From IMG/VR virus record IMGVR_UViG_3300014204_007089, positions 32,001 to 96,000 of that record: a DNA stretch of 64,000 nucleotides, one strand, 5' to 3'. The DNA is from a virus (Duplodnaviria > Caudoviricetes). This document shows positions 48,495-63,963 of the stretch, one piece after another (positions within the stretch are counted from its first letter, which is position 1; every line of letters begins with the position of its first letter). A program made the translations under genes and the position numbers. A model generated the notes under the pieces. It was not told the DNA's origin, ran no database searches, and saw only the letters and a program-made list of their open reading frames with translations.

Positions 48495-48503
48495 ATTAAT
48501 CTC

Positions 48504-49334: not shown

Positions 49335-49337
49335 ATT

Positions 49338-50306
49338 TCACATCTTAAGAACATATCTATTAGTTACATACCATTGACAAACTTGTGTAATTCCATCTCT
49401 AAATTTGTATTGAGGAATCCAATCAATTGATTTTATTTTATCATTATTCATAGAAAATCTAAAATCATTTCCAGTTATATCTGAAATATGTTTTATAAGA
49501 TTGTGACCTCGTCCAATTGCATTACAAACAATTTGAGCAACTTCAAGATTTGTAAATTCTTGTTTTGCTGTTATATTATATAAAGCACCATCTATTCCAT
49601 TATCAATAATATTAAATAAAGCTGAACAAGTATCATATACATGTATCCAATCTCTTACCTGATTACCCTGCCCATAAATTGAAATTTCATTTTCATCGAA
49701 AATACTTTTAATAATTTTTGGAATAAATTTTTCACTAGTTTGCCAAGGTCCATAATTATTACATAATCTAATAATATTATATTTTAAATCATTTGTTATT
49801 CCAGCTGTTTTCGTCAATAATTCTGCAGAAACTTTGGAAGCGGCATATATATTTTTTGGATTTATAAAAGATTCTTCTGTCCATGAAGAATCCTTTTCAT
49901 TATCAAGTGATCCATATACTTTATCAGTGCTAAATAATATAAGTTTAGCCCCTATTTTTATACATTCATTTATTATGTTTTGTGTACCAATTATATTATT
50001 TGTAATAAATGGTATATTATTTTCACTTACACATGATTCATCTGCACCATGAATAATAATATCTGGTTTTTCTTTTTCACAAATAATATGAAGAATATGA
50101 GAATCAAGAACATCAGCAATATAAAAAGAATGATCTGAATTAACGTAGATATTTTGTGTGAGATGAGTTTCTCTAACCCTATCTAAACTAGAAATAATAT
50201 ATGGTTTCTTGTGATAAAATACTTGGCGAATAAAATTACCAAGAATAAATCCACCACTACCTGTTATTAATAATCTACGTTTTTTTATACTCATTTTATT
50301 TGCCAT
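49338..50306 (-). CDS. NDP-sugar dehydratase/epimerase, dTDP-glucose 4,6-dehydratase (RfbB/RmlB)-like
   Basis: LITGSGGFI, STDKVYG, YAASK, NNYGP.Q..EKFIP, GQGNQVRDWIHV. Confidence 0.8.
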   Translation of the reverse strand: MANKMSIKKRRLLITGSGGFILGNFIRQVFYHKKPYIISSLDRVRETHLTQNIYVNSDHSFYIADVLDSHILHIICEKEKPDIIIHGADESCVSENNIPFITNNIIGTQNIINECIKIGAKLILFSTDKVYGSLDNEKDSSWTEESFINPKNIYAASKVSAELLTKTAGITNDLKYNIIRLCNNYGPWQTSEKFIPKIIKSIFDENEISIYGQGNQVRDWIHVYDTCSALFNIIDNGIDGALYNITAKQEFTNLEVAQIVCNAIGRGHNLIKHISDITGNDFRFSMNNDKIKSIDWIPQYKFRDGITQVCQWYVTNRYVLKM

Positions 50307-50330
50307 TTTTTTTTATTTTATATAATATAT

Positions 50331-51872
50331 TTATAACAAATCTAATAAAAATTTTGTATATTTTCTAAATTTTTTATTACAAAAATTATATATATCTGTT
50401 ATTTTAACTGAAGATTCAAAATTTATATCTTTTAATATATAAACAAACATTATTTCTGTTTCTGAAATGTTATTATCTTTTGGATTAATACCAAATTCTT
50501 TTTCATAATATTCACAAGCGTTCTTAAAATCTTCAACAGGATTTTTTTTATATTCTTGAATTTTAATATTTTTAATATTTTTTAAATTTATAACTTCTTG
50601 ATTGATTTTAAAATCTTCTTTAAGAACCTCTGGAATATATCCCAATTGTCTTTGTATAGAATTTATAAATTTTTGTATATTATCTTTTCCCTTTGTTATA
50701 ATTTCTTTATTACTATTTTTAAGATTATTAACTTTATTTATCAGATTTTTATTATCTGTTTTAATATTAATATCAGTATTAAAACAGATTGGGGGATTTA
50801 ACATATTATACAATGGTAAAATAGTTACATTATTCTTTTTATAATTAAAAATATCATTATCAATTACCCATTCAATAGTTTTAATTAAACCATCTCTTAA
50901 TGATGTATTTGCTTTAAATCCTAAAACTTCCTGTGCACGTGATACATCAAGACGTCTAATAGGTTGTCCATTCATATCAATTTTACCATTAAAAACTATT
51001 TTACCAGAATAATTTACAAGTTCTGCTATTAATTCAGCCAAATCTTTTATTGAAATATCAACGCCAGTTCCAAGATTAACCGGATCATTATAATCTACTT
51101 CTTCAACTACAGCTTTACAAATAGCTTCTGCACAATCTTTTGCATAAAAAAATTCTCTGGTAGGAGTTCCATCTCCCCATATTTCTACTTCTGATAAGTT
51201 ATTATTCTTTGAATCAAGAAATTTACGAATTAACGCTGGAATTACATGACCATTTCTATAATCAAAATTATCATAATTACCATACATATTTACTGGTAAA
51301 AAATGCATTCCTTTAAGACCAAATTGATCTCTAAAACATTGTTGCATTAATAGCATTACTCTCTTACTTTCACCATATCCGGCATTTGTAGGTTCTTCAA
51401 ATCCATTCCACAAATCAGTTTCTTTAAATGGAACTGGACAAATTTCCGGATATTCACAAATAGAACCAACTCCATATAAATGAGTAATTGGACGTTCACA
51501 ATTTATTTGTTTAATAGTATTATTTTGCCAAGTATTAATAGTTCTAATACCCTCAAATAAATTAATAGTCATCTTTAAATTTTCATGAATAAAAATAGCT
51601 GGATTATCTTTATTAGCTCCAATACCACCACAAAGAGCAGCCATATGTAAAATAATATTTGGACGATGTTGTTGTAAATATTTTAAAACACTTTCATAAC
51701 TTAATAAGTTTAATTCTTTAGATGATGGTGTTAATAATTTAAATCTTGGTTCTTTTAAATATGCAATATGCTTTGATAAAGGATTAACCTCTCTTGCATA
51801 TTTTTTTAATAAAGGAACAACATGATGACCTAAAAATGATGAACCACCAGTTACTAATATTATCTTTGACAT
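50331..51872 (-). CDS. fcl: GDP-L-fucose synthase with ~175-aa C-terminal extension
   Basis: HMAALCGGIGAN, GSICEYP, EPTNAGYG.SK, HVIPALIRKF, IWGDGTPTREF. Confidence 0.85.
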   Translation of the reverse strand: MSKIILVTGGSSFLGHHVVPLLKKYAREVNPLSKHIAYLKEPRFKLLTPSSKELNLLSYESVLKYLQQHRPNIILHMAALCGGIGANKDNPAIFIHENLKMTINLFEGIRTINTWQNNTIKQINCERPITHLYGVGSICEYPEICPVPFKETDLWNGFEEPTNAGYGESKRVMLLMQQCFRDQFGLKGMHFLPVNMYGNYDNFDYRNGHVIPALIRKFLDSKNNNLSEVEIWGDGTPTREFFYAKDCAEAICKAVVEEVDYNDPVNLGTGVDISIKDLAELIAELVNYSGKIVFNGKIDMNGQPIRRLDVSRAQEVLGFKANTSLRDGLIKTIEWVIDNDIFNYKKNNVTILPLYNMLNPPICFNTDINIKTDNKNLINKVNNLKNSNKEIITKGKDNIQKFINSIQRQLGYIPEVLKEDFKINQEVINLKNIKNIKIQEYKKNPVEDFKNACEYYEKEFGINPKDNNISETEIMFVYILKDINFESSVKITDIYNFCNKKFRKYTKFLLDLL

Positions 51873-51903
51873 ATTTTACCTTTTTATTTATTAAATTTAA
51901 TAT

Positions 51904-52893
51904 TTATAAATTATTTAATAATAGTTTTTCTTTATAAGCTAATTTTAAATCATTATCAACCATTTCTTCAACTAATTGTTTAAATGTATATTTTGGTTTC
52001 CATCCAAGAATTGTACGAATTTTTGTAGAGTCTCCACATAAAGCATCTACTTCAGTTGGTCTAATATATCTAGAATCAAATTCAATATATTTATTATAAT
52101 CTAAATTTAATATATCAAAAACAATCTCTAAAAACTCTTTAACAGAATGCATTTCTCCAGAAGCTACTACCCAATCATCTGCCTTAGGAGAATTAACCAT
52201 CATCCACAATGCGTTAGACACATCCTTAGCATGATTCCAATCTCGTTTAGAATCTAGATTACCAAGAATTAATTTATCTTGTAATCCTATTTTTATTCTA
52301 GCTGCTGCTCTGGTAATTTTTCTTGTAACAAAAGTTTCTCCCCTACGCATACTTTCGTGGTTAAAACTGATTGAATTTGCTGCAAAAAGTTTTTCTGATT
52401 CTCTATAATTAATAACTGACCAATAACCAGCTATTTTTGCAGCTCCATATGGAGATCTTGGATGAAATGGTGTTGTTTCGCTTTGTGGAGGTGGAGAATT
52501 CCCAAACAATTCAGAAGTTGATGCTTGTACAAATTTTGTATGAGAACTAAAATTACATAAAGCTTCTAAACATCTAACAACACCAGTTGCACCAATATCC
52601 ATTGTATATTCTGGAATATCAAAACTTACACGCACATGTGACATTGCAGCCATATTATAAAATTCATCTGGTTGAACTAAACGAACCCAATTGGCTATAG
52701 ATCCGTAATCAGATAAATCACCAAAAGATAAATGCAAGTCATTATAGATATGATTTATTCTCTCAGTATTAAAAGAACTACTACGTCTAATTAAACCATG
52801 TACTTCATAACCCTTCTCTAATAAAATATCAGCTAAATATGAACCAGTTTGTCCAGTAATTCCTGTTATACACGCTCTCTTCATTAAAACCAC
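51904..52893 (-). CDS. gmd: GDP-mannose 4,6-dehydratase
   Basis: ITGITGQTGSYLA, SHVRVSF, QASTSELFG, PRSPYGAAK, FNHES.RRGETFVTRKI. Confidence 0.95.
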   Translation of the reverse strand: MVLMKRACITGITGQTGSYLADILLEKGYEVHGLIRRSSSFNTERINHIYNDLHLSFGDLSDYGSIANWVRLVQPDEFYNMAAMSHVRVSFDIPEYTMDIGATGVVRCLEALCNFSSHTKFVQASTSELFGNSPPPQSETTPFHPRSPYGAAKIAGYWSVINYRESEKLFAANSISFNHESMRRGETFVTRKITRAAARIKIGLQDKLILGNLDSKRDWNHAKDVSNALWMMVNSPKADDWVVASGEMHSVKEFLEIVFDILNLDYNKYIEFDSRYIRPTEVDALCGDSTKIRTILGWKPKYTFKQLVEEMVDNDLKLAYKEKLLLNNL

Positions 52894-52971
52894 ACTTTCA
52901 TTATTTAATAAATCCTAATCAAATAATATATCACCCTTGAAAATGATTTTGTGAAATTTTAATAAAATATA

Positions 52972-53605
52972 TTATTTCGTAAATATATAATTATATTGTA
53001 ATTTTTGATTTAGTTTATAACCAATAGATTTCATATATTCAGTGTAAGTTGGAGTGTGAATCCAATTTTCAAGTAAAATAACTTTTGGAGTATATTTGCT
53101 TACATCAAATCCTTTCATCACTTCTAATTCCCAACCTTCTGTATCCACACTAAGAAAATCTACATGATCAATATTTAATTCAGATAATATTGTATTTAAT
53201 GTTCTTACTTTAACTTTAATATTTTTAATAGGTAATAAATTTATAGAAACTTGACCATGTTTAAGATAAGTGTCTTTTATAGTTAAAGATGAATAACTAT
53301 GATCTGTAATTGTATTATTATTATAATCATCAGAAAAATGTACAACTTGAAAATCAACATCATCTTTATTTTCAAATGAACAAGCATATTGATGAATTTC
53401 ATTTCCACAATCCAAATGCATTTGGACATATTTCGGATTAGGATCAATACAGATACAACGCCACCCAGATTCTCTAAAGTGTACTAATGAAATCTGGAGT
53501 TGCTGCACCAACCTCTACCATAACACCTTTAAAAGAAAAGTCAGAAAAATAATTTTCTCTAATTACTTTATCAGTTTCAAATTCAGCATAATATTTATTT
53601 ACCAT
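52972..53605 (-). pseudogene. FkbM-family methyltransferase, frameshifted near 53482
   Basis: 5' part MVNKYYAEFETDKVIRENYF...MVEVGAATPDFIS (ATG 53605) joins HFRESGWRCICIDPNP...LSVDTEGWELEVM in another frame. Confidence 0.75.
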
Positions 53606-53614
53606 AAAATCCTT

Positions 53615-54865
53615 TTATATAATTTCAATTTCTGGGAAAGGAAAAATAAACTTTCCACCATTTTCAATAAATTCTTTTTCTCGTTTTAATATTCCATCCT
53701 TAAAATGCCAAGGAAGTACAAGAAAAAAATCTGGTTTCATATCACGAGCTTCTTGTTCAGATATAATTGGAATATTGCTACCTGGAGTAAATCTGCCAAA
53801 TTTATAATTATTTACATCTGCAATAAAAGGAATTTCTGCACTTGTAAAACCACAAAATTGTAATAACACATTTCCTTTTGTAGATGCTCCATATCCAAAT
53901 ACTTTTTTACCAGAATTTACTAAAGATGTAATTAATTGTTTTAAATCATACTTATGTTTAAATACCCTTTCTTCAAAATCACGATATGGTCTAGGAGTAT
54001 TTAAACCCATTTTATTTTCCTGGAATAAAAGCCAATTAATAATTGGTGAATTTGGAATAAAATTTGATTTAGTTTTTGCTGCTGTAACTGCAAAACTACC
54101 ACCATTTATACCATTCATATTAACATCTATAATTTTCATATCAGCACATTCTAATATATATTTAATTACAGATAATGAATAATATTCAACATGTTCATGA
54201 CAAATAGTGTCATAAGATGTTGTTCTCAACATAGATGGCATATAACTTTGTTCAAAATGCCATATTCCATCATCATCTAATATAGAATAAATATCACGAA
54301 CAAATTTTATTGGATCTTCTAAATCATAAAACATAGCAATAGATGTAATTATTTTAATTTTTTTATTAGTTATATTTTCAATAATTTCTTTTGAAAAGAA
54401 ATTACTTATTAATATGATATCATCAGGATAATATTCTTTGAATTTAATTGCTGTAGGATCTACTCCAATTCTTTCAATTCCTTTTACATTATATGATTTT
54501 AATAATGTTCCATCATTAGACCCAATATCTAAAACTACATCACCACTATTTAAACCTATATTCTTTTGTAAAAATAAAACTTTATTTTTTAAATGATTTA
54601 CCATTGAATAATTTAATCCAGATCGATATCCGTAATTATCACCATACATTTCATCTGGATTAAAAGAATGTTTCATTTGAACAAGTCCACTATCAGGGCA
54701 CCATACTAATTCTAAAGGAACTGATGATATGTTTTCATCTTTACTCTTAGGAAATACACCAGTTAAACATTGATGTCCTAAATTAAGTATACTTATTAAA
54801 TTATTACTATTATTTAACCTACATTTATTAATTTCTTTATAATTATTTTTATACATAAACACCAA
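53615..54865 (-). CDS. NDP-hexose C-methyltransferase
   Basis: N-terminal Zn-binding-like region, VLDIGSNDG, YDTICHEH..YY, GYGASTKGNVLL, LVLPWHF. Confidence 0.88.
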   Translation of the reverse strand: MVFMYKNNYKEINKCRLNNSNNLISILNLGHQCLTGVFPKSKDENISSVPLELVWCPDSGLVQMKHSFNPDEMYGDNYGYRSGLNYSMVNHLKNKVLFLQKNIGLNSGDVVLDIGSNDGTLLKSYNVKGIERIGVDPTAIKFKEYYPDDIILISNFFSKEIIENITNKKIKIITSIAMFYDLEDPIKFVRDIYSILDDDGIWHFEQSYMPSMLRTTSYDTICHEHVEYYSLSVIKYILECADMKIIDVNMNGINGGSFAVTAAKTKSNFIPNSPIINWLLFQENKMGLNTPRPYRDFEERVFKHKYDLKQLITSLVNSGKKVFGYGASTKGNVLLQFCGFTSAEIPFIADVNNYKFGRFTPGSNIPIISEQEARDMKPDFFLVLPWHFKDGILKREKEFIENGGKFIFPFPEIEII

Positions 54866-54909
54866 TATTGTATAATATTCAACTTAGTATATATCAAAGA
54901 ATTCCTAGA

Positions 54910-56205
54910 GTGAACTACCCCTACCTAAAGGAAGGGGCTTCCTATCGGTTGACTTACGTCAACCAGCAAGGCTTTGAATTCGGGCTGTTCCATCCCGAAT
55001 TTTAATATATTAATCGCAGCATTGATATCTCTATCATGACATGCTCCGCAGGAGCATGTCCATTCTCTATCATTTAATTGTAATTCTTTATTAACTTTTC
55101 CACATATTGAACAGGTCTTAGAACTGGGTTCAAATCTTCCGATTTGAACCAATTTCTTTCCATAGAATTCTGCTTTATATTTGATATAATTTACAAAAGT
55201 TGACCATGAACAATCTGCAATATATCTAGATAATATGGTAGGAGATTTTTCAAGTAGATCTTTTACACTAAGATTTTCCATAATTATAACGTGGTTTTTG
55301 TTTATAATTTTTAGACTTTCCTTATGTAAGAAATCAGATCTAACATTACTAATCTTTTCATGTTCTCTAGATAATAGTAACTTTATCTTCTTATAATTAT
55401 TTGATCCTTTAGTTTTCAAAGACAATTGTCTTTGAAGTTTTTGTATCTTCCTTAAATGTTTATTATATGTTTTAGGATTAGCAATTTTTTCTTTATCAGA
55501 AAAAACTGCAAAATCTTTAATTCCCAAATCTATTCCTATAATATTAGGTCCAAATATAAATTCAGGATTGGGTATATTGTTTTCTACTAAAATAGAAATA
55601 TAATATTTTTCAGTTGTTGTTTTAGTTAAAGTGCAAGTTTTAATTGTACCTTCAAAACTTCTATGAAGTTTTGCTTTAGTCCACTTAAGATAAGGAAGAA
55701 ATATTTTTCCTTTGGAAAAATCAATTCTTACTCCTTGTGGAAAAGAGCATGTTTGTTTATTATATCTAGATTTGAATTTAGGAAAACCTGCTCCATGTTT
55801 GAAGAAATTAATATAAGCAGTATCTTGATGTCTCAAACTTTGTTGCAAAGTTTGAGATGGAACTTCTTTTAGGAAAGGATTTTCTTCTTTCAAAGAGAGA
55901 AGAAAATCAGAAGCCAAATCATTATAATATATAGATTTCTTTTCAGAATTGTATAGATTTTTACGATATTCTAGGGCATGATTATACACAAATCTGCAAG
56001 AACCGAAAGTTCTTGCAAGAATATCTTCTTGTATTTTTGAAGGGTATAATCTATATTTATAAGTTTTTTGCATAACTAAAATCTTAATTAAGTATATATC
56101 GAATAATCATCTAGTTTAAAGGAAAAGCAATGGATATAGAAAAATAAAAGTGCAATGGTCCAATTCATCCCCTGCCTAAAGGCAGGGGTCTTCTTGTCCA
56201 TAATG
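54910..56205 (-). mobile_element. IS200/IS605-family element carrying tnpB only (element 1)
   Basis: Target/TAM TTTAT (56206-56210); left-end hairpin CCCCTGCCTTTAGGCAGGGG; right end CCCCTTCCTTTAGGTAGGGGTAGTTCAC; no tnpA. Confidence 0.88.
54925..56073 (-). CDS. tnpB: TnpB RNA-guided endonuclease
   Basis: YKYRLYP HTH; RuvC GIDLG, IMENL and DRDINAA all intact; CSICG/CSCG zinc finger. Confidence 0.95.
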   Translation of the reverse strand: MQKTYKYRLYPSKIQEDILARTFGSCRFVYNHALEYRKNLYNSEKKSIYYNDLASDFLLSLKEENPFLKEVPSQTLQQSLRHQDTAYINFFKHGAGFPKFKSRYNKQTCSFPQGVRIDFSKGKIFLPYLKWTKAKLHRSFEGTIKTCTLTKTTTEKYYISILVENNIPNPEFIFGPNIIGIDLGIKDFAVFSDKEKIANPKTYNKHLRKIQKLQRQLSLKTKGSNNYKKIKLLLSREHEKISNVRSDFLHKESLKIINKNHVIIMENLSVKDLLEKSPTILSRYIADCSWSTFVNYIKYKAEFYGKKLVQIGRFEPSSKTCSICGKVNKELQLNDREWTCSCGACHDRDINAAINILKFGMEQPEFKALLVDVSQPIGSPFL

Positions 56206-56236
56206 ATAAAAATACTTACATTTAAGTTAAATCTTT

Positions 56237-57617: not shown

Positions 57618-57625
57618 TTAAATCC

Positions 57626-59341
57626 TTATATTTTATTTAATTCTTTATCTATAATTTCATAAACATCTTTTATATAAATAGTGTCAGACCCAATAATTTT
57701 AGCATTATATTTCATAGGAATTTTTTTTATCCAACTATATGTCATAATTTCATTCTTTAAAAAAATTATAAATTTACAATTTCTTTGATAATTATCAATA
57801 GTTATTGAAAAAGAATAAGGACCAGAACCTCTTCCAATTATAACTTCAGAATTTAATGATAAATAACTGTTTTCATTTAAATCTGAACCTTTAATATTTA
57901 TAATATCTTCTGTAAAAAACAAATTATCTCGCCTGATAATATCATTTTTTTTACTAGAAATTAAAAATATAAAATCTTTATATTTATTAGTAATACAATT
58001 AATTATAGGACTGAAATTAAATTCAAAAGCTTGTTCAGAATGAACATCACCATTTGATATAAATATTTTTTTCTTACCATGATAATTATTTAATAATAGA
58101 TTAACATTATCTATATCACATTTTTTATAATCTATTTTGGGAAAAAAATCCCAAATATTATAATTAGTTATATCTATATTAAAATATTTTAATATAATCT
58201 CTTTAAAATATTCATATAAACAATCAAAATTAGCTTTATATATATTAAAAATATTTAAATTTGTAGAAAACCATGTATTTATATATAATACATTATTTCT
58301 AATATGTGTTGGACTATTTGGTTTAAGATAATTTACATTTATTTTATTACATTTGATATTAATATCTTTTAATAAAGACAGATCATTGTTATGTAAATAT
58401 TCACATTCATAACCTAATCCCATAATAAATTTTACAAAAGATCTGCTAACATGAATATCTCCATTATGCCAAAAATTAAAGAAAACTATTTTATTAAATT
58501 TGTAAATAAAATTATCCTCTTCATTTACATCAATAATTTCTTGTTCTATTGGAAATATAATATTTTTTTTATCTTCACATGTTATTAAAATTTTCTTTAG
58601 AAAAATCTTTCCTTTTGTAGATATTGGTCTTTTAATAATAATGCTATAAGATTCCTGATCTGATGTTATTGAAATATCAGTTGTATATGATTTTAATACA
58701 GCTGATGCTATATTTGTTTTATATTGTTTGTCATTTAATAATCCAAATATAAACTTCCCATTTCCATCAATTCTATATAAATCAACCGTAATAAAATATA
58801 TCTTATCTTTATCTAATTTTGGTATCTCTATTGTATAATTACTAGTATTACCAATAATTACACCATTATCACAAATCTTAGCTCCATTTTTACAATCGAA
58901 TTCACTAAATCCAAATATTTCAGAATTATAAATAACATTTGTATTTTGTAAATTATCAATTATTGATTTTTTTAATTCAATATCATTGTATAATAAAATT
59001 TCATCAACAAGATATATTTTACCCTTATTTTTTGCTAATGGTTTAATAGTAATTAAACCATCTACACCAATAGATAATGATATACTTTGATTTTCTAAAT
59101 TAATTTTAAAATCTTTACATATACCATTAGATGAAATATTTACAATATCATTAATATAATCTTGTTTAAATTTTAAAACACACCTGTTAGCTTTTATATT
59201 TTTAAAATTTAAACACAAATTACTAACATTAGAATTCAATACCAAACCATCTCTTGTAAAAGAAATATTTTGTATAGAAAATACATAATCTTTAAATTCT
59301 AATGGTAATATCTTTTTTAATAAAAAATTTGCCATACACAC
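57626..59341 (-). CDS. Putative glycosyltransferase (GT-B-like C-terminal domain) with beta-rich N-terminal domains
   Basis: HNGDIHVSR and SEVIIGRGSGP resemble GT9/GT-B motifs; cluster context. Confidence 0.45.
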   Translation of the reverse strand: MCMANFLLKKILPLEFKDYVFSIQNISFTRDGLVLNSNVSNLCLNFKNIKANRCVLKFKQDYINDIVNISSNGICKDFKINLENQSISLSIGVDGLITIKPLAKNKGKIYLVDEILLYNDIELKKSIIDNLQNTNVIYNSEIFGFSEFDCKNGAKICDNGVIIGNTSNYTIEIPKLDKDKIYFITVDLYRIDGNGKFIFGLLNDKQYKTNIASAVLKSYTTDISITSDQESYSIIIKRPISTKGKIFLKKILITCEDKKNIIFPIEQEIIDVNEEDNFIYKFNKIVFFNFWHNGDIHVSRSFVKFIMGLGYECEYLHNNDLSLLKDINIKCNKINVNYLKPNSPTHIRNNVLYINTWFSTNLNIFNIYKANFDCLYEYFKEIILKYFNIDITNYNIWDFFPKIDYKKCDIDNVNLLLNNYHGKKKIFISNGDVHSEQAFEFNFSPIINCITNKYKDFIFLISSKKNDIIRRDNLFFTEDIINIKGSDLNENSYLSLNSEVIIGRGSGPYSFSITIDNYQRNCKFIIFLKNEIMTYSWIKKIPMKYNAKIIGSDTIYIKDVYEIIDKELNKI

Positions 59342-60039
59342 CTATAAAATAAATGAAATAATATTATTAATTCTCTCATCAAACCCACTTTTAATATTTA
59401 AATGAAACCCATTTTTCTTTACCATTCTCAACTGAAAATTCTTCATGAGTTTCCCCAAACCATTTTTCTTTCTTTGGAATATCATTAGTAGAAAAATAAG
59501 CATTGTTAAAACTAATAAAATCAAATTTATATCCAATATTAAGCCCTAGTACATAATCTATAATAGTTTTCAAACCAAGGTGGTTATATTCTATACATAG
59601 AACAGTTGGAAGCATGTTAGATTTAGACATTCCATCTAATACTTTAATTTCAAAACCTTCAACATCTAAACAAAAAAGATCAACTTTATTAATATTATAT
59701 TTATTAAATATGAAGTTTAAATCAGTATAACTAATTGTTTTAACTTCATATTCTTTAAATGATATAATTGGATGATAATTTAATTCATCTAAATGTTCTG
59801 CTGTATGTTTAAAAGATCCATTACCAGAACACTCACCTGTAGGTGTGATAACATCTTTAAACATTAAAGTCTCTGTTTTATCAGATAATCCCATGTTTAA
59901 ATTTATACTCTTTGGTCTATTTCTTATTAATCCTTGATAATATTTACTAGATGGCTCAAAATTAATACCTTTCCATCCCATAAATTCTTCAAAGAATTTA
60001 CAACAGCTAATACTAACTCCATCAACAGCTCCTGCTTCT

Positions 60040-61435
60040 GTCAACCACCCCCACCAAGCAAAGCTTGGTAGGGGCTTGTATCTACCAGACAATTGGTTAG
60101 TATCCCTTCAATTGCCCCGGAATTCAATCCAGGCGATAATTTAATAGTCGGATAATGTCTTTCAACATTATCAATCTTTTTCAGACTATTGTTTGGCTCA
60201 TTGACTGGAGCCTGCTCTTTCGAGATTTTTTCACTTATCCATAAGTCTCTAATATTCTTTGAAGCATTGAAATCTGCTCCATCTTTATGCCCACACTTTA
60301 TACAATGAAATTCACTTCCCTTGCGATTCTTGCGAGATATGTATCCGCAAGAATTGCATCTCTGACTTGTATATTGTGGATTTACATAATCTACTACCTT
60401 CCCAATTGCTTCAGCTTTGTATTTAGTATACATTTCCAATTGGTAGAAACTCCAATTAGAAATTCTCCTATTCATTCTTTTGCCCTTGGATTTCTTATTC
60501 ATCTTTGAAAGTTTTTCAAAGATGAAATATTGGAAAGGTAATTGCACTAGAGATTTAGAAATAATATGATTTTCATTTTGGCTGAACCGCTTTTCTCGTC
60601 CTGACAAAATACGTAAACGTGTTTTGGCAGCGCGAGTGCCTTTTGCCTGAAGCTTTTTCCTATTATAACTATTCTTTCTTTTTATTTTATTACGATGTTT
60701 TCCTGACACTTCCATACCATTAGAACAACTAATAGTATTAATTATTCCCCGATCAATACCCAGAACATCGCCTTCTGCATTTGCAGAAGGCTGGTCTGAA
60801 GTAAAGATTAGAGAAACAAAGAACTGTTGTTTTTGTTTCTCAAAGGTTAATTGCAGTCCTTTATATTTCCATTTATCTTTTCCATTAACTTTTTCAGTTA
60901 TTAAGTATTGGAAATATTTTGGAATTTCTATTATAGTTTTATAACGATAATTTTTAGTTAAAGTAGAAATTGTTAATAAATTTCCTCTTAAAGAAGAAGT
61001 TCTTAAATCAAATTGAACTCCTGAGGAATTCGATTTTGATGACTTAAATTTCCATGGTTTTTTCTTATTATTAGTTTTAATATTTCCAATAGCAGAATCT
61101 CTAATGGATTGAATAAGAGCAGAAGGAAGATCTGGGAATTGATTAGTAAGATCGGAATAAAGATCTACATGTACTTTTTTAGTATTAATTGATTTGTGCT
61201 CAAAGCACCAATCCACATGAGTATTATATACTTTAGAAGCCATATCCATAAGAGGTAAAAATTGATCTTTAGGAAGATCAATTTTTATCTTCATAGTTCT
61301 GGAAATAGTTTTCTTTTTAGATTTAGGATTTGGCATATAAAGTATTTTGACTCATGTTTGGAAAATGTAAAGGGCATTAATGCAATTCATCCCCCACCAA
61401 GACAAGCTTGGTAGGGGTTTTCTTGCATTGCTTTG
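60040..61435 (-). mobile_element. IS200/IS605-family element carrying tnpB only (element 2)
   Basis: Target TTTAT (61436-61440); CCCCTACCAAGC..TTGGTGGGG hairpin at both ends; right end GGTTGAC; no target duplication. Confidence 0.9.
60041..61336 (-). CDS. tnpB: TnpB RNA-guided endonuclease
   Basis: RuvC GIDRG, IFEKL and ADFNAS; YTSQRCNSCG...CIKCG zinc finger; ORF runs to the element right end. Confidence 0.9.
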   Translation of the reverse strand: MPNPKSKKKTISRTMKIKIDLPKDQFLPLMDMASKVYNTHVDWCFEHKSINTKKVHVDLYSDLTNQFPDLPSALIQSIRDSAIGNIKTNNKKKPWKFKSSKSNSSGVQFDLRTSSLRGNLLTISTLTKNYRYKTIIEIPKYFQYLITEKVNGKDKWKYKGLQLTFEKQKQQFFVSLIFTSDQPSANAEGDVLGIDRGIINTISCSNGMEVSGKHRNKIKRKNSYNRKKLQAKGTRAAKTRLRILSGREKRFSQNENHIISKSLVQLPFQYFIFEKLSKMNKKSKGKRMNRRISNWSFYQLEMYTKYKAEAIGKVVDYVNPQYTSQRCNSCGYISRKNRKGSEFHCIKCGHKDGADFNASKNIRDLWISEKISKEQAPVNEPNNSLKKIDNVERHYPTIKLSPGLNSGAIEGILTNCLVDTSPYQALLGGGG

Positions 61436-61541
61436 ATAAAGAAACCATTCCTTTTATCTTTAAAATAATTTTCAAATAATACCTGATCAACAGGTGGAGA
61501 CCATTGTCCATAAAATTTCCTATTAAAATCTAAACCAACTT

Positions 61542-61802
61542 TCATTTTACTGCTCCTTTTATTATTTCTATAATTTTTTCATCAATTGCATCTATAAGTT
61601 TATTGCGTTCCAAATTCAAATCACATAAATTATTTAATATATTTAACATATATTTTTTACTATCTATTGTTGTACAATATTTATTATCAAATTCTTCAAA
61701 AGTCATTCTCTTTATTTCATATAGAAATTCTTGATTTTCCCAAAGTTCATGATCTATTGTAGAAAGTTTATATATTAAATTACCAAAATTATTTTTATCC
61801 AT
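61542..61802 (-). CDS. Small helical protein, DUF4254-like; paralogue of the neighbouring gene
   Basis: GNLIYKLSTIDHELWENQE..YEI.RMTFEE...CDLNLERN.LID. Confidence 0.55.
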   Translation of the reverse strand: MDKNNFGNLIYKLSTIDHELWENQEFLYEIKRMTFEEFDNKYCTTIDSKKYMLNILNNLCDLNLERNKLIDAIDEKIIEIIKGAVK

Positions 61803-61804
61803 AA

Positions 61805-62113
61805 TTAATATGTCTTATGTTTTCTTTGAATAAATTTTCCATTGTCTAAATTTTCACCAGAAACTGCAGAATTTATTATTTCTACAATTTTTTCATCAAC
61901 CTCATCTATAAGTTGATTACGTTGATTATTCAAATCACATGCTTTTTTTAAAATATCCCAAAGTTTTTTTGCACCATCTTCTGTTTGCCAATACTTATTT
62001 TTATATTCTTCAAATGTCATTCTACGAATTTCATAAAGAATATCTTGATTATTCCACATTTTCAAATCTACTGTACATAATTTATCAATAATTCCGCCGA
62101 TCGTATCGCTCAT
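61805..62113 (-). CDS. Small helical protein, DUF4254-like
   Basis: DTIGGIIDKLCTVDLKMWNNQD...CDLNNQRNQLIDEVD. Confidence 0.6.
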   Translation of the reverse strand: MSDTIGGIIDKLCTVDLKMWNNQDILYEIRRMTFEEYKNKYWQTEDGAKKLWDILKKACDLNNQRNQLIDEVDEKIVEIINSAVSGENLDNGKFIQRKHKTY

Positions 62114-62119
62114 ATTTCC

Positions 62120-62593
62120 TCACAAAGTTTTAATTCCTAAATATTGTTTATTATCATAATAACTAAATTCATATCCAAAAGACTTATATAACCTAACTGC
62201 AGTAACATTATCTTTATAAACCTTTAATCTAATTTTTTCTGCTCCATTATTTTTTGCTGCTAAATGTAAAAAATTCATTAATAATTTAGAAAATCCTTTT
62301 CCACGGTAATTTTTACTTACATAAATACCCAAACAAGGAATTTTATATCCATTATCCCATCCTCTTAATAAACCATATGCAATAATTTGATCGTCTTTAT
62401 CAATATCACTATCTAACATAATATAATAAAGATCTTTTCCAACATAATCAGTACAAAGGTCATATGCAAATTCATATGTAAATTCATGAGGGTGAAATTT
62501 TTTATCTTCTTTTAACTCTATAATTTCATTAAATAATTTAATTAAAAGATTACAATGTTCAATGTTTGGATATAATATTTGTAATATTTTCAT
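62120..62593 (-). CDS. GNAT-family acetyltransferase
   Basis: LGIYVSKNYRGKGF and L.VYKDN..AV.LYKSFGY. Confidence 0.88.
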   Translation of the reverse strand: MKILQILYPNIEHCNLLIKLFNEIIELKEDKKFHPHEFTYEFAYDLCTDYVGKDLYYIMLDSDIDKDDQIIAYGLLRGWDNGYKIPCLGIYVSKNYRGKGFSKLLMNFLHLAAKNNGAEKIRLKVYKDNVTAVRLYKSFGYEFSYYDNKQYLGIKTL

Positions 62594-62623
62594 ATGTTTC
62601 CTGTATTATTATTGTTTTTTATA

Positions 62624-63274
62624 TTATTTAAATTCAATTTTATTTTTCTTTTTAATATTTTTAAAAGCCTCTAAAGGACGTAGATTTTCTAATGCCCAAC
62701 ATTTTTGAAAATTTTCTTCTTCCATTGAATTGTATGGAAGAAAAAATTGTGGAATTATATGATCAATATGCCATGTTTTTTTATTCTTATTAATTCTACC
62801 ATGATTATCCCAATTCATCCAAGGTTCCCATTGTTTTTCTAAATGTTGTTTAAATTCATTTATAGTATATGGAAGATATTGTAATATAGACTTGTCAGTT
62901 TTCGAAGAGTTTTGTTTTTTAAGTGCTTCGTTAATTAAGTGAGAAATATTATGACGCAAATTAAATGTTGGATCTTTTAATCTTCGTTTTTTTTGATAAT
63001 CTTTATTATATTCTAAAATTTTATTTTTATTTTTTAATTGATATTCTTTAATTTGTTCTTTATTATTAATATAATATTCTTTAGATTTTTCTTTAATTTT
63101 TTCTTTATTATTAATACTATATTGTTTCTTTTGTTTTAAAAACTGTTCTTTATTATTAATATAATATTCTTTTGTACATTGTTTACACTGATATTGCAAT
63201 CCATCTTTAGTAGATTTTTTTGTATGAAAATCAGATTTATTTTTTTCTATTTTACATTTATTACACATTTTCAT
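62624..63274 (-). CDS. HNH-type homing endonuclease-like protein with Zn-finger and KEYYINNKE repeats
   Basis: CNKC...CKQC; WHIDHIIP...NLRPL...N. Confidence 0.75.
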   Translation of the reverse strand: MKMCNKCKIEKNKSDFHTKKSTKDGLQYQCKQCTKEYYINNKEQFLKQKKQYSINNKEKIKEKSKEYYINNKEQIKEYQLKNKNKILEYNKDYQKKRRLKDPTFNLRHNISHLINEALKKQNSSKTDKSILQYLPYTINEFKQHLEKQWEPWMNWDNHGRINKNKKTWHIDHIIPQFFLPYNSMEEENFQKCWALENLRPLEAFKNIKKKNKIEFK

Positions 63275-63963
63275 ATATTTTTTGTATCATTGTTTTCAAA
63301 AATAGCTTTATATAAAGCATAATCTTGATTATTAATTTCTAAAATATAATCATTTAATTCTTTCAAATATGAATTAGAATATTCTATATTATTTTTATTA
63401 GAAATATTTAAATAATTAACTTTTATTAATGGTGATACTTTAAGAAAATTACTTAATTTATTATAAAATTCATTCATATTCTCAAAACATCCAACAATTA
63501 TATAATTTTTTTTAATATTATTTAATGCATCAATCCAATTTTCATTTTCACGATTATTGTTTAACATTTTTACTTGTAAATTTGAAATTTCTCCATTATT
63601 AATATTATATAATGAATGTGCAAATGTTAAAGGGTCACTATTAATAATATATTTATGTGAATAATGATTTTTATTATTTAATACATGATTATAATATGAT
63701 ATAAATCTAGAAATAGGATTTCTCATTACTGAAATATAAACTGGAACTTTTCCATTAAAATCTTTAGGATTATCACCATAATACTGATGACCACCAAAAC
63801 CTTTATATAAAGAAAAATTTTGATTATCAATAATATTTGGAGATATAATTGTTAAATAATTATCATTAAATGCTCGCAAAAGCCAATCATGAAGTGATGT
63901 CCCGCCACATTTTGGAATGTGTGTATATATTAATATTTCATTATTTTGGTCAAAAGTTTTCAT
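63271..63963 (-). CDS. Sulfotransferase family protein (paralogue of 56237..56923)
   Basis: YTHIPKCGGTS and MRNPISRFISYY. Confidence 0.8.
   Translation of the reverse strand: MKTFDQNNEILIYTHIPKCGGTSLHDWLLRAFNDNYLTIISPNIIDNQNFSLYKGFGGHQYYGDNPKDFNGKVPVYISVMRNPISRFISYYNHVLNNKNHYSHKYIINSDPLTFAHSLYNINNGEISNLQVKMLNNNRENENWIDALNNIKKNYIIVGCFENMNEFYNKLSNFLKVSPLIKVNYLNISNKNNIEYSNSYLKELNDYILEINNQDYALYKAIFENNDTKNI

What the first reader, a model, noticed from the sequence alone, without database searches (positions are those of the whole stretch)
49338..63963. Phage-encoded glycan biosynthesis and tailoring cluster of at least 15 kb
SEEN: RfbB-like dehydratase, fcl, gmd, NDP-hexose C-methyltransferase, two FkbM methyltransferases, two sulfotransferases, two GT-like proteins and a GNAT, all co-oriented and reaching the window end. 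ESTABLISHED: Gmd plus Fcl make GDP-L-fucose, and C-methyltransferases make branched deoxysugars; giant viruses use such sets to glycosylate their own virions. INFERENCE: the phage builds a methylated, sulfated and possibly acetylated fucose-containing glycan for its virion (perhaps at DGY sites), for its DNA, or to remodel the host surface.
Basis: partly seen in the sequence, partly recalled or inferred. Interest (0 to 1): 0.7.

Follow-up and report, generated by a model that had tools for sequence, protein, structure and literature searches.

The report
Soluble sugar-chain gene island in megaphage
An uncultured very large phage carries about 25 neighbouring genes for making fucose-type sugars, joining them into a chain and sulfating it with soluble enzymes only; such islands are already known in large aquatic phages, and sequence alone cannot say what the chain is attached to.

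Summary
It runs from 49338 to about 72121 (window-equivalent coordinates), 22.8 kb, 8 kb past the window end. It lies between a PhuZ-like tubulin gene and a tail-fibre gene.

Intact genes:
- Gmd, a GMER/Fcl-type synthase, a TylC3/TcaB9-type 3-C-methyltransferase and an RmlB-like enzyme
- two paralogous Sulfotransfer_2 genes and a GNAT
- 10 glycosyltransferase-like genes, including GT10, GT11 and two members of a nearly virus-only GT9-like family

- Both FkbM methyltransferase genes are broken. One is frameshifted and one is split by a TnpB insertion element.
- Two TnpB elements and an EndoVII/HNH-like gene sit inside the island.

I found no flippase, polymerase, exporter or initiating transferase on the 106-kb contig. 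Gene order is conserved in five related viral contigs (six loci). The sulfotransferases, GNAT and TnpBs belong to a variable middle.

The acceptor is undecided: virion proteins about 0.45, host envelope about 0.35.

The DGY enrichment is real in this lineage. It is absent from two other phages with similar islands.

This is a new member of a known kind. This scan has noted comparable islands on other DNA (e1-5365513, e1-5667339, e1-6074523, e1-6074531).

The parts
49047..49334 (-). 95-aa ORF of unknown function at the downstream edge of the island
   Evidence: No Pfam, NCBIfam or PHROG match. No tblastn match in the 79 related loci.
49338..50306 (-). RmlB-like NDP-hexose dehydratase-type SDR, with a T-D-K motif in place of T-D-E
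   Evidence: TIGR01181 scores 261.6 bits, below its cutoff of 365. PDB 6bi4 matches at E 3.7e-54, and the alignment shows Lys at the Glu position; YxxxK is present. The two closest relatives, L072 and L073, also have T-D-K; five more distant ones have T-D-E.
50331..51872 (-). GDP-L-fucose synthase (GMER/Fcl)-like SDR, residues 1-343, plus a C-terminal extension of about 170 aa with no known relative
   Evidence: NF047922 scores 219 bits, below its cutoff of 500. PDB 1bws matches at E 3.5e-46 over residues 46-340, with the catalytic positions kept. The extension has no tblastn match in the related loci.
51904..52893 (-). GDP-mannose 4,6-dehydratase (Gmd)
   Evidence: TIGR01472 scores 433.4 bits, above its cutoff of 415. 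PF16363 matches at E 3.3e-117.
52972..53605 (-). FkbM-family methyltransferase gene, frameshifted near 53480
   Evidence: PF05050 matches at E 7.5e-15. The N-terminal part, which holds the glycine-rich SAM motif, is in another frame and ends at a stop at 53474-53476. Homologues in L027, L015 and L011 are uninterrupted.
53615..54865 (-). NDP-hexose 3-C-methyltransferase of the TylC3/TcaB9 type
   Evidence: Methyltransf_13, _23 and _14 domains all match. PDB 4rv9 matches at E 4.3e-53 and TcaB9 at about 1e-37. In Synechococcus phage DSL-LC02 the homologue lies between Gmd and Fcl.
54900..56204 (-). IS200/IS605-type element carrying TnpB (ORF 54925-56073), inserted in the intergenic space; the 3' (low-coordinate, RE) boundary near 54900 is approximate
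   Evidence: NF038281 scores 382 bits and NF040570 323 bits. Subterminal hairpins are present and TTATC lies just 5' of the left end. Absent from all 79 related loci.
56237..56923 (-). Sulfotransfer_2 sulfotransferase, paralogue a
   Evidence: PF03567 scores 31.7 bits, above its cutoff of 22. 46% identical to paralogue b. Weak match to phrog_3347.
56898..57617 (-). 239-aa GT-A-like putative glycosyltransferase of a virus-dominated family
   Evidence: Atlas clusters are named 'putative glycosyltransferase', 91-100% viral, with TM 0.82 to part of an exostosin-domain protein. In 11 of 79 loci it lies directly upstream of the GT9-like gene.
57626..59341 (-). 571-aa protein: two N-terminal beta-sandwich domains (CBM-like) plus a C-terminal GT9-like GT-B domain (residues 284-571)
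   Evidence: AF2 model has pLDDT 83.5. Foldseek matches for the N-terminal half include tandem CBM51 (2ygm), E 3.6e-8, at low TM. The C-terminal half is 47% identical to the modelled paralogue. 668 representative homologues, of which only two (P0001, P0003) align over the whole two-part protein and a few others (such as P0052) extend partly into the N-terminal half.
59391..60038 (-). 3' piece of a second FkbM methyltransferase gene, split by the TnpB2 element
   Evidence: PF05050 matches at E 5.8e-15. The junction was mapped against homologues L020, L019 and L014.
60039..61434 (-). IS200/IS605-type element carrying a TnpB-like gene (ORF 60041-61336), inserted inside the FkbM gene
   Evidence: NF040570 scores 155 bits, above its cutoff of 100. 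Hairpins are present and TTATC lies 5' of the left end. Absent from all 79 related loci.
61435..61545 (-). 5' piece (37 codons) of the split FkbM gene
   Evidence: Translation of the stretch upstream of TnpB2 matches the N-termini of the homologues.
61542..62113 (-). Two paralogous small genes (86 aa and 102 aa) of a very conserved family of unknown function
   Evidence: 55% identical to each other. The 102-aa protein has 1212 homologue clusters; the top 120 are 73-81% identical. Found in 23 of 79 related loci. Weak DUF4254 match.
62120..62593 (-). GNAT acetyltransferase
   Evidence: PF00583 matches at E 2.9e-15. GNAT domains are fused to the GT9-like family in P0092 and P0111.
62624..63274 (-). 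EndoVII/HNH-like endonuclease; probably a selfish insert, not a glycan enzyme
   Evidence: phrog_1035 matches at E 9.6e-13. Found in 1 of 79 related loci.
63271..63963 (-). Sulfotransfer_2 sulfotransferase, paralogue b
   Evidence: PF03567 scores 35.4 bits. Only 7 homologue clusters at E<=1e-5, the best non-self ones 41-42% identical. No tblastn match in 50,697 phage records.
63960..64000 (-). 3' end of a 290-aa GT9-like GT-B glycosyltransferase gene (whole gene 63960-64832 in window-equivalent coordinates; contig coordinate = this + 32000). The island continues past the window end to about 72121.
   Evidence: The 290-aa protein:
- AF2 model has pLDDT 95.9.
- VIA-align gives 3tov (GT9) Z 15.3, an NDH-PSI supercomplex chain (7wff_a) Z 14.6, WaaF 14.4, WaaC 13.7 and TibC 13.2; the next GT-B folds score 10.2 or less.
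- Foldseek gives 3tov at E 9.3e-7.

Genes beyond the window, in window-equivalent coordinates:
- GT11, 64863-65600 (-), PF01531 E 3.8e-27
- GT2, 65600-66358 (-)
- GT10, 66361-67305 (+), PF00852 E 1.2e-8
- GT2, 67300-68055 (-)
- conserved 323-aa unknown, 68037-69008 (-): 73 homologues, none with a Pfam match
- GT2, 69066-69854 (-)
- GT2, 69851-70564 (-)
- GT4/GT1 type, 71003-72121 (-), phrog_2170 E 4.3e-31
- 93-aa ORF, 72211-72492 (-)
- tail fibre/spike with Peptidase_S74, 72509-74128 (-), which runs off the contig end

Best explanation
This is a 22.8-kb glycan-assembly island made only of soluble enzymes. It sits at a fixed place, between the tail-fibre gene and the tubulin gene, in a lineage of very large uncultured phages.

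Shown by homology:
- Gmd and a GMER-type enzyme should convert host GDP-mannose into GDP-L-fucose.
- A TylC3/TcaB9-type enzyme next to them should add a C-3 methyl branch to the 4-keto-6-deoxy intermediate, giving a virenose-like sugar.
- Ten glycosyltransferase-like enzymes are present. They include GT10 and GT11 of the fucosyltransferase families and two GT9-like enzymes of a family found almost only in viruses. One of these carries two carbohydrate-binding-module-like domains.
- Two paralogous Sulfotransfer_2 enzymes should sulfate the chain and a GNAT may acetylate it.
- The two FkbM methyltransferases are inactivated in this genome.

Inferred:
- The chain is built in the cytoplasm of the infected cell and attached to the phage's own outward-facing virion proteins (fibres, baseplate, decoration), as in chloroviruses and mycobacteriophages. 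It would act as a coat or recognition surface.

My confidence in the enzymology is about 0.9. The confidence figure given here is for the virion acceptor.
For: Enzyme calls.

Phage origin and conserved position:
- The order GT4, GT2, GT2, unknown, GT2, (GT-A-like), GT10, GT2, GT11, GT9-like, then Gmd, Fcl, RmlB-like, tubulin, UvsW recurs wholly or in large part in L008, L072/L073, L006, L024 and L010.

No membrane machinery:
- None of the 28 genes scanned in and beside the island has a transmembrane-like profile, except one hydrophobic stretch in the 323-aa unknown.
- The only multi-segment hydrophobic protein on the 106-kb contig is a 775-aa protein in the structural region.
- No Wzx, Wzy, ABC-exporter or initiating-transferase family appeared in the Pfam scans.

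Virus-specific enzyme families suggest a long-standing phage function:
- The GT9-like family gave 160 relatives in viral contigs but only 1 in 185,579 species genomes. The search patterns differed between the two scans.
- Atlas neighbours are 91-100% viral.
- Within the 79 viral loci holding the family, Gmd is present in 44, Fcl in 36 and GT11 in 28.

Other points:
- TibC, a protein O-heptosyltransferase, is among the closest folds, Z 13.2.
- The island abuts a tail-fibre gene.

Precedents:
- Chlorovirus GMD and GMER with cytoplasmic capsid glycosylation (PMC5408694, passages).
- Jumbo phage XacN1 with 2 GTs and at least 2 virion glycoproteins (PMC5852040, passages).
- Mycobacteriophage virion glycans, as described in PMC12619734 (passages).
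Against: - No result shows a glycan on any virion protein.
- O-antigen and capsule glycosyltransferases are also soluble or peripheral enzymes (my own knowledge). Missing transmembrane segments in the GTs therefore do not discriminate.
- A flippase, polymerase or initiating transferase could be supplied by the host, or could lie on the unsequenced part of the genome. Related contigs of 131-209 kb are rated only 25-49% complete.
- Papers on the closest described islands favour host-surface change (PMC7029224; PMC9602691; PMC12801897).
- The fold matches do not separate TibC from the LPS heptosyltransferases.
- DGY enrichment does not go with comparable islands in DSL-LC02 or LR756501.
- Two broken methyltransferase genes and three selfish inserts show that part of the island is dispensable or decaying.
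Confidence: 0.45

Rival explanations
1. Host-envelope remodelling. The enzymes act at the inner face of the host membrane on the host's own lipid-linked intermediates. The host's flippase and ligase then export a fucosylated, sulfated O-antigen, capsule or glycoprotein glycan. This would block superinfection, stop progeny from sticking to debris, or change grazing and recognition.
For: - This is the usual reading of the nearest described islands. [quoted passage not shown]
- GT2, GT4, GT9-like, GT10 and GT11 are typical LPS and O-antigen families (family roles from my own knowledge).
- One GT2 weakly matches a PHROG described as 'GtrB-like O-antigen conversion'.
- The middle of the island varies between relatives, as expected under arms-race selection.
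Against: - No initiating transferase, flippase, polymerase, ligase or exporter is on the 106-kb contig.
- The key GT families are almost confined to viruses rather than recently taken from hosts.
- A conserved core kept at one locus across relatives, with protein identities as low as about 27-47% in the most distant ones, fits a constant, phage-owned acceptor better than host glycans, which vary.
Confidence: 0.35
2. Another acceptor. The chain is built on a soluble or lipid molecule, such as a secreted glycolipid or a free oligosaccharide, or on non-virion phage or host proteins.
For: - Nothing in the sequence fixes the acceptor.
- The tandem CBM-like domains on the 571-aa enzyme suggest that it binds a carbohydrate, not necessarily a protein.
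Against: - I know of no precedent in phages.
- The position next to the fibre genes and the conserved core would be left unexplained.
Confidence: 0.1
3. DNA hypermodification. The glycosyltransferases decorate modified bases of the phage DNA to evade restriction.
For: - Phage GTs that put diverse glycans on DNA are known. I saw this only as described and cited in PMC12619734.
- PMC12801897 raises the idea for cyanophage GTs.
- The contig has a separate candidate DNA-modification group far from the island: a nucleoside 2-deoxyribosyltransferase/GP88 protein, a GT1-like gene and a radical SAM gene.
Against: - Ten GTs, fucosyltransferase families, a C-branched sugar and sulfation are far more than the short DNA glycans I know of.
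- No hydroxymethylase-type gene lies in or beside the island.
- The candidate DNA-modification genes are about 75 kb away.
Confidence: 0.04
4. Decaying cargo. The island is a hitch-hiking block with little present function in this phage.
For: Two of the tailoring genes are broken, and two TnpB elements plus an EndoVII/HNH-like gene have inserted.
Against: - Twenty of the 25 genes are intact. The exceptions are the two broken FkbM genes and the three selfish inserts.
- The core order is conserved across relatives at about 40-68% protein identity.
- The damage is confined to the variable middle.
Confidence: 0.05

Closest known systems
'LPS' / cell-wall-modification / 'host recognition cluster' gene islands of T4-like cyanomyophages and pelagimyophages (for example the Gmd-C-methyltransferase-Fcl-GT block of Synechococcus phage DSL-LC02; S-SCSM1; S-SCSM2R)
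   Same: - Same enzyme classes, and partly the same families. DSL-LC02 has Gmd, a 39%-identical C-methyltransferase, Fcl, FkbM and eight annotated GTs in one block.
- GT11 homologues occur in 103 phage records, of which 84 are named Synechococcus, 6 Prochlorococcus and 1 Cyanophage.
- These islands lie beside tail-fibre genes and vary between relatives (PMC7029224).
- None has an experimentally known acceptor.
   Different: - Unrelated phage lineage. The sheath's only match among deposited phages is 27% identity over 18% of its length, to Bacillus phage G.
- The genome is probably above 400 kb, judging from the completeness ratings of relatives.
- Two Sulfotransfer_2 genes with no tblastn match in 50,697 phage records.
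- IS and TnpB insertions.
Glycan island of the 735-kb huge phage LR756501 / LR756503
   Same: Within 45 kb it holds Gmd, two C-methyltransferases (one 40% identical), three FkbM genes, a homologue of the GT9-like family (37% identical), GT10, several GT2 and many methyltransferases.
   Different: - That island is larger. It adds formyltransferase, DegT aminotransferase and radical-SAM enzymes for amino-sugar chemistry, and no sulfotransferase was found there.
- No DGY enrichment: 86 matches against 55 in the control.
- The main text of the paper on huge phages (PMC7162821), which reports five genomes above 634 kb (the link of these records to that paper is my recollection), does not contain 'glycosyl', 'polysaccharide' or 'fucose'.
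Chlorovirus (PBCV-1) virus-encoded capsid glycosylation
   Same: - Virus-encoded GMD and GMER make GDP-L-fucose.
- Soluble virus-encoded GTs and a methyltransferase domain build the capsid glycan in the cytoplasm, independent of ER and Golgi (PMC5408694, passages).
   Different: - Eukaryotic host.
- The acceptor, Vp54, is proven there and unknown here.
- No sulfation was mentioned in the passages I read.
- Kinship between the GT sets was not tested.
Mycobacteriophage virion O-glycosylation (Che8 type, Freeman et al. 2023)
   Same: Phage-encoded GTs modify capsid and tail-tube subunits. I know this only from the description in PMC12619734; the paper itself is not held.
   Different: - Only a few GT genes, and no sugar-nucleotide synthesis or sulfation that I know of.
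- No sequence comparison was made here.
Predicted virenose (6-deoxy-3-C-methylhexose) pathway of Coxiella LPS
   Same: That paper's GDP-mannose alternative is a five-step route, similar early on to those of other C-3'-methylated deoxysugars, that ends in reduction and epimerisation (PMC3539893, abstract and section list only). That it goes through a 4,6-dehydratase and a C-3 methyltransferase, like the Gmd, C-methyltransferase and Fcl trio here, is my own reading of that route.
   Different: - That pathway is itself an in-silico proposal.
- The product here is not determined.
GT9 heptosyltransferases (WaaC, WaaF) and the protein heptosyltransferase TibC
   Same: They are among the best structural matches to the 290-aa model: 3tov Z 15.3, WaaF 14.4, WaaC 13.7, TibC 13.2. 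An NDH-PSI supercomplex chain (7wff_a, Z 14.6) ranks second. Other GT-B folds score 10.2 or less.
   Different: - No sequence-level match to PF01075 or to any PDB sequence by profile.
- Sequence identity is 8-12%.
- The family goes with GDP-sugar genes, not ADP-heptose genes.

Membership tests
GDP-L-fucose de novo pathway (Gmd + GMER/Fcl) | Gmd reaches the curated equivalog score | tested here: met
   TIGR01472 scores 433.4 bits against a cutoff of 415.
GDP-L-fucose de novo pathway (Gmd + GMER/Fcl) | GMER/Fcl reaches the curated equivalog score | tested here: not met
   NF047922 scores 219.4 bits against a cutoff of 500. The protein has an insertion and a 170-aa extension.
GDP-L-fucose de novo pathway (Gmd + GMER/Fcl) | Catalytic Ser, Cys, Tyr, Lys and His of GMER are kept | tested here: met
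   In the alignment to 1bws, the G-S-x-C, Y-x-x-x-K and H-V-I-P-A-L positions are conserved. Which residues are catalytic is recalled, not from a call.
NDP-hexose 3-C-methyltransferase (TylC3/TcaB9 type) | Three-part architecture: N-terminal zinc-binding domain, SAM methyltransferase domain, C-terminal domain | tested here: met
   PF08421 matches at E 1.2e-14, PF13489 at 2.1e-12 and PF08484 at 2.3e-53. Full-length match to 4rv9 at E 4.3e-53.
dTDP-glucose 4,6-dehydratase (RmlB) | Curated equivalog score, and the Asp-Glu catalytic pair | tested here: not met
   TIGR01181 scores 261.6 bits, below 365. Lys replaces Glu in the T-D-E motif. A T-D-K arrangement is used by UDP-GlcNAc 4,6-dehydratases (recalled), so dehydratase activity is not excluded.
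FkbM methyltransferases | Intact reading frame that includes the N-terminal SAM-binding motif | tested here: not met
   One gene is frameshifted near 53480. The other is split by the element at 60039-61434. A read-level check was not possible.
PAPS-dependent sulfotransferases (Sulfotransfer_2) | Pfam gathering score, and a P-K-x-G-x-T/S-type 5'-phosphosulfate loop | tested here: met
   The two genes score 31.7 and 35.4 bits against a cutoff of 22. Both have H-I-P-K-C-G-G-T-S near the N-terminus. That this loop is the PAPS motif is recalled.
GT9 glycosyltransferases | GT-B fold closest to the GT9 structures | tested here: met
   Four of the five best matches are GT9-type structures at Z 13.2-15.3 (the fifth, 7wff_a at Z 14.6, is an NDH-PSI supercomplex chain); all other GT-B folds score 10.2 or less.
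GT9 glycosyltransferases | Sequence membership (PF01075) | tested here: inconclusive
   No PF01075 match for either paralogue or for the 16 relatives tested. One atlas cluster of look-alikes carries PF01075.
Wzx/Wzy- or ABC-dependent O-antigen/capsule gene cluster | Initiating phosphoglycosyl transferase, flippase or ABC exporter, and polymerase or ligase | tested here: not met
   None in the Pfam scans of the contig's ORFs and no multi-pass membrane protein of that kind. Only 106 kb of a probably much larger genome was available.
Virus-autonomous virion glycosylation (chlorovirus or mycobacteriophage type) | Glycan demonstrated on virion proteins | not testable with these tools
   This needs virions or heterologous expression. 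Only the context is met: the island lies beside a tail-fibre gene.
DNA glycosyl hypermodification systems | Base hydroxymethylase or similar enzyme together with a DNA glycosyltransferase | tested here: inconclusive
   None in or next to the island. A separate candidate group lies at the other end of the contig. The genome is incomplete.

The most novel reading that the evidence does not exclude
The island is a phage-autonomous virion glycosylation system with its own short sequon. Lineage-specific members, for example the conserved 323-aa unknown or the CBM-bearing GT9-like enzyme, would recognise the Asp-Gly-Tyr tags that crowd the outward-facing tail, baseplate and fibre proteins. They would build on them a sulfated fucose-type glycan with a C-methyl branch. 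That would be the first sequon-directed and the first sulfated virion glycan in a bacteriophage.
Probability: 0.12. Interest if true: 0.85.

Novelty: new member of a known kind. Interest (0 to 1): 0.42.

Why it matters
Large aquatic and subsurface phages repeatedly carry 10-45 kb of sugar-chain genes, and nobody has shown what the chains are attached to. If they coat the virion, they would shape host range, particle stability and recognition, as in giant viruses of algae. If they rebuild the host surface, they are a superinfection-exclusion tool.

This example adds four things:
- It shows the island is a fixed part of one megaphage lineage, with a conserved core and a swappable middle.
- It defines an abundant GT9-like glycosyltransferase family found almost only in viruses, and a very conserved 102-aa companion protein, both of which mark such islands.
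- It brings sulfation into the picture.
- It offers a compact enzyme set (Gmd, C-methyltransferase, Fcl) for a rare branched deoxysugar that can be tested in vitro.

Tried and rejected
Searches that found nothing:
- Megablast of 49000-64000 against 50,697 phage records: no match.
- Single-protein scans of viral contigs with the 571-aa and 513-aa proteins: no relatives. The alignment-based scan worked.
- Rfam scan of 49000-64000 at E<=0.1: no match, so no known omega-RNA family or intron was detected.
- The 323-aa conserved unknown: no Pfam, NCBIfam or PHROG match, no PDB profile match better than E 0.22, and no profile relation to the GT9-like family.
- C-terminal 170 aa of the Fcl-like protein: no relative in the related loci.
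- Word search of this scan's earlier notes found nothing.

Ideas dropped:
- The atlas hinted at a TPR-type N-terminal half for the 571-aa protein. The AF2 model shows an all-beta half instead.
- I considered an IStron (self-splicing intron plus IS) to rescue the split FkbM gene. I dropped it because only about 100 nt lie between the insertion point and the TnpB start and Rfam found no intron.

Analyses that could not be done or were uninformative:
So neither expression, nor whether the frameshift is real at read level, nor whether the IS sites vary in the population could be examined.
- Promoter analysis: a TGATATATT-like element lies upstream of GT4, Gmd and the C-methyltransferase, and also upstream of some structural genes. 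The generic sigma-70 scan was near background, 174 sites against 150 +/- 11.5. Neither gives expression timing.
A smaller alignment, A4, gave 1 relative.
- The Freeman et al. 2023 paper is not held.
Those genes are now listed inside the last part.

Full report
**Setting**

The window is bases 32001-96000 of a single 106,130-bp contig. The contig is 27.5% G+C and nearly all its genes are on the minus strand. It is a contractile-tailed phage. Its genes include:
- sheath- and tube-initiator-like genes
- a PhuZ-like tubulin
- a ribonucleotide reductase with a LAGLIDADG insert
- DnaB, UvsW and a sigma-70-like factor

No deposited phage is close. Megablast found nothing. The sheath's only match is 27% identity over 18% of its length, to Bacillus phage G. 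Three syntenic relatives of 131-209 kb are rated 25-49% complete, so the lineage probably has genomes above 400 kb.

**The observation**

- Gmd passes its curated equivalog threshold: 433 bits against 415.
- The Fcl-like protein is divergent: 219 bits against a cutoff of 500, with an internal insertion and a 170-aa C-terminal extension that has no relative. It still aligns to E. coli GMER at E 3.5e-46 and keeps the Ser, Cys, Tyr, Lys and His positions. Which residues are catalytic is recalled.
- The C-methyltransferase has all three domains of the TylC3/TcaB9 type. It matches D-mycarose 3-C-methyltransferase over its full length at E 4.3e-53.
- The RmlB-like protein matches solved RmlB enzymes at E 3.7e-54. 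It has Lys where the catalytic Glu sits, and so do the two closest relatives. Five more distant relatives keep Glu. I recall that a T-D-K arrangement is used by UDP-GlcNAc 4,6-dehydratases. The enzyme may therefore still be a dehydratase, but it should not be filed as RmlB.
- The two sulfotransferases are paralogues, 46% identical. Both pass the Pfam threshold and both carry an H-I-P-K-C-G-G-T-S loop.

**The two 'GT-like' proteins**

Pfam recognises neither.

The 239-aa protein:
- It belongs to virus-dominated atlas clusters labelled putative glycosyltransferase.
- It has an N-A-D-I-Y-F-D-D stretch that looks like a GT-A acidic motif.

The 571-aa protein:
- It has 668 homologues among 1.84 billion representatives. 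Nearly all are stand-alone proteins of about 290 aa that match only its C-terminal half. Only two (P0001, P0003) align over the whole two-part protein, and a few others, such as P0052, extend partly into the N-terminal half.
- A 290-aa paralogue, 47% identical, begins at 63960, just as the window ends.
- The paralogue's AF2 model has pLDDT 95.9. It is a GT-B fold whose best matches are almost all GT9 structures: 3tov Z 15.3, WaaF 14.4, WaaC 13.7 and the protein heptosyltransferase TibC 13.2. An NDH-PSI supercomplex chain (7wff_a, Z 14.6) ranks second. Other GT-B enzymes score 10.2 or less.
- The N-terminal half of the 571-aa protein models as two beta-sandwich domains. Their Foldseek neighbours are tandem carbohydrate-binding modules such as CBM51 (2ygm, E 3.6e-8), though at low whole-chain TM.
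- In other proteins this GT9-like domain is fused to GNAT, formyltransferase, methyltransferase or GT25 domains. That ties the family to glycan tailoring and gives the neighbouring GNAT a plausible role.

**True extent**

Reading on in the contig, the genes beyond the window are, in order:
- the 290-aa GT9-like gene
- GT11 and a GT2
- GT10, on the opposite strand
- a GT2, a conserved 323-aa unknown, and two more GT2
- a GT4-type enzyme
- a 93-aa ORF
- a tail-fibre/spike gene with a Peptidase_S74 chaperone domain, which runs off the contig end

The island thus spans 49338 to about 72121, which is 22.8 kb and 25 genes. Ten of the genes are GT-like.

1. Two TnpB genes of IS200/IS605-type elements lie in the island, at 54925-56073 and 60041-61336. 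Both elements have subterminal hairpins and the pentamer TTATC just outside the left end.
2. The second element, 60039-61434, splits an FkbM gene. The first 37 codons lie upstream of it at 61435-61545, and the rest resumes at 60038. The junction matches uninterrupted homologues.
3. The other FkbM gene is frameshifted near 53480. Its N-terminal part, which holds the SAM-binding motif, is in another frame and runs into a stop at 53474-53476. Homologues are uninterrupted.
4. 62624-63274 is EndoVII/HNH-like.

Both FkbM methyltransferases therefore look inactive in this assembly. I could not check this at read level.

**Relatives**

An alignment-based scan found 160 relatives of the GT9-like family in viral contigs, and 79 loci were kept. 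I compared the window's island proteins with those 79 loci by tblastn and assigned each region to its best query.

| Island gene | Loci with a match (of 79) |
|---|---|
| Gmd | 44 |
| Fcl | 36 |
| GT11 | 28 |
| 102-aa protein | 23 |
| 239-aa GT | 17 (11 directly upstream of the GT9-like gene) |
| C-methyltransferase | 11 |
| GT4 | 7 |
| 323-aa unknown | 7 |
| tubulin | 5 |
| sulfotransferase a | 1 (weak) |
| sulfotransferase b | 0 |
| GNAT | 1 |
| either TnpB | 0 |

- The SDR enzymes cross-match one another, so their counts rest on the best-query rule.
- L008, L072/L073, L006, L024 and L010 share, wholly or in large part, the order GT4, GT2, GT2, unknown, GT2, (239-aa GT), GT10, GT2, GT11, GT9-like, then Gmd, Fcl, RmlB-like, tubulin, UvsW. 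L006 ends before the tubulin, and L024 and L010 keep only part of the order.
- The island is therefore a fixed feature of the lineage, with a conserved core and a variable middle. The middle holds the C-methyltransferase, the FkbM genes, the sulfotransferases, the GNAT and the selfish elements.
- A scan of one genome for each of 185,579 prokaryote species with two patterns from the family found a single relative, on a 3-kb contig. The patterns differ from those of the viral scan and both scans are pattern-limited. Even so, the family looks nearly virus-restricted, in line with the atlas taxa.

**Comparable islands elsewhere**

- Synechococcus phage DSL-LC02 has Gmd, a 39%-identical C-methyltransferase, Fcl, FkbM and eight annotated GTs in one block.
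- The 735-kb phage LR756501 has an island of at least 45 kb. It holds Gmd, two C-methyltransferases, FkbM genes, a GT9-like-family homologue, GT10 and amino-sugar enzymes.
- GT11 homologues are in 103 phage records, most of them named Synechococcus or Prochlorococcus phages.

What the papers say:
- Passages in cyanophage and pelagiphage papers read such genes as host-surface modification or DNA glucosylation (PMC9602691; PMC7029224; PMC12801897). The last of these GTs possibly the highest number in a marine phage.
- The main text of PMC7162821 on huge phages does not contain 'glycosyl', 'polysaccharide' or 'fucose'.
- Phage sulfotransferases have been noted, with unknown function (PMC10580990, passages).
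- The window's sulfotransferases match a PHROG only weakly. They have no tblastn match in 50,697 phage records and only 7 homologue clusters at E<=1e-5.
- My searches turned up no paper describing this lineage's island. The library is incomplete.

**Mechanism**

Shown by homology:
- Host GDP-mannose is converted to GDP-4-keto-6-deoxymannose by Gmd, and to GDP-L-fucose by the GMER-type enzyme.

Inferred from gene adjacency:
- In the window the C-methyltransferase lies one (frameshifted FkbM) gene away from Gmd; in DSL-LC02 it lies directly next to Gmd, and in L011 and L017 close to it.
- I therefore infer that it methylates C-3 of the keto intermediate, giving a virenose-like 6-deoxy-3-C-methylhexose. 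A five-step GDP-mannose route to virenose, ending in reduction and epimerisation, has been proposed in silico (PMC3539893, abstract and section list only).

Further inference:
- GT10 and GT11 would transfer fucose, and the other eight GT-like enzymes would extend the chain.
- The two sulfotransferases would add sulfate from host PAPS.
- The GNAT may acetylate the chain.
- ManC, RmlA and PAPS synthesis are not encoded on the contig.

**Acceptor**

No island protein has a membrane-spanning profile. The 106-kb contig encodes no flippase, polymerase, exporter or initiating transferase.

I favour the phage's own virion proteins at about 0.45, for these reasons:
- the GT families are virus-specific
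- the island has a fixed position beside the fibre gene
- TibC is among the closest folds
- there are precedents in chloroviruses (PMC5408694), in jumbo phage XacN1 (PMC5852040) and in mycobacteriophages (via PMC12619734)

Host-envelope remodelling stays a strong rival at about 0.35:
- O-antigen GTs are also soluble (my own knowledge)
- the host could supply the export steps
- most of the genome is unseen

DNA modification is unlikely, about 0.04.

**DGY**

- I recounted Asp-Gly-Tyr on the contig: 67 observed against 6.3 expected. All of them are in large structural-region proteins, including the fibre beside the island, and none is in island enzymes.
- The sequence around the motif varies, and the motif often occurs in tandem.
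- At DNA level, the coding strands of three syntenic relatives have 50, 51 and 47 matches, against 7, 4 and 7 for the reversed control.
- DSL-LC02 has 22 against 13 and LR756501 has 86 against 55.
- The tag therefore belongs to this lineage and not to glycan islands in general. A link between the tag and the island stays an untested idea.

**Verdict**

This is a new member of a known kind of phage glycan island. Its notable points are the sulfation genes, the branched-sugar trio, a well-defined virus-restricted GT9-like family and recent damage by selfish elements. This scan has noted comparable islands on other DNA, sharing the 102-aa marker protein.

Noticed in passing
window 61805-62113 (and paralogue 61542-61802): A 102-aa helical-looking protein of unknown function is very strongly conserved. 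It has 1212 homologue clusters at E<=1e-5. The top 120 are 73-81% identical and 101-105 aa long, and some lie on contigs up to 458 kb. It occurs in 23 of 79 loci that hold the GT9-like family and in other glycan islands noted by this scan. The only family hint is a weak DUF4254 match.
   Followed up: partly
window 54900-56204 and 60039-61434: Two TnpB-bearing IS200/IS605-type elements without TnpA. Both have TTATC just outside the left end, and similar subterminal hairpins. One has split a methyltransferase gene cleanly. Neither is present in any of the 79 related loci.
   Followed up: partly
window 48813-48836, within the 550-bp gap 48495-49046: A hairpin that resembles the subterminal hairpin of the TnpB1 element lies in the gap between the island and the tubulin gene.
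   Followed up: no
contig 889-5743 (L002 889-5743; upstream of the window): A separate group of genes: a radical SAM enzyme, a 377-aa protein combining GP88 and nucleoside 2-deoxyribosyltransferase domains, and a GT1-like protein. It is a candidate DNA-base modification module, unrelated to the island.
   Followed up: no
contig-wide; for example window 28596-33503, 11689-16305, 25715-26098: Asp-Gly-Tyr occurs 67 times against 6.3 expected, only in large structural-region proteins. The flanking sequence varies and the motif is often in tandem. The same excess is found in three syntenic relatives but not in DSL-LC02 or LR756501.
   Followed up: partly
window 36150-40073 and 23568-24713: The ribonucleotide reductase large subunit carries a LAGLIDADG-type insert, probably an intein. 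A free-standing LAGLIDADG endonuclease gene lies among the structural genes. This adds to the load of selfish elements in this phage.
   Followed up: no
L020 (5.4-kb contig labelled as a giant-virus bin): Homologues of the GT9-like gene, the 102-aa protein and FkbM lie together on a short contig binned with giant viruses. One atlas cluster of the 239-aa GT family is mostly Nucleocytoviricota. This is either mis-binning or families shared between phages and giant viruses.
   Followed up: no
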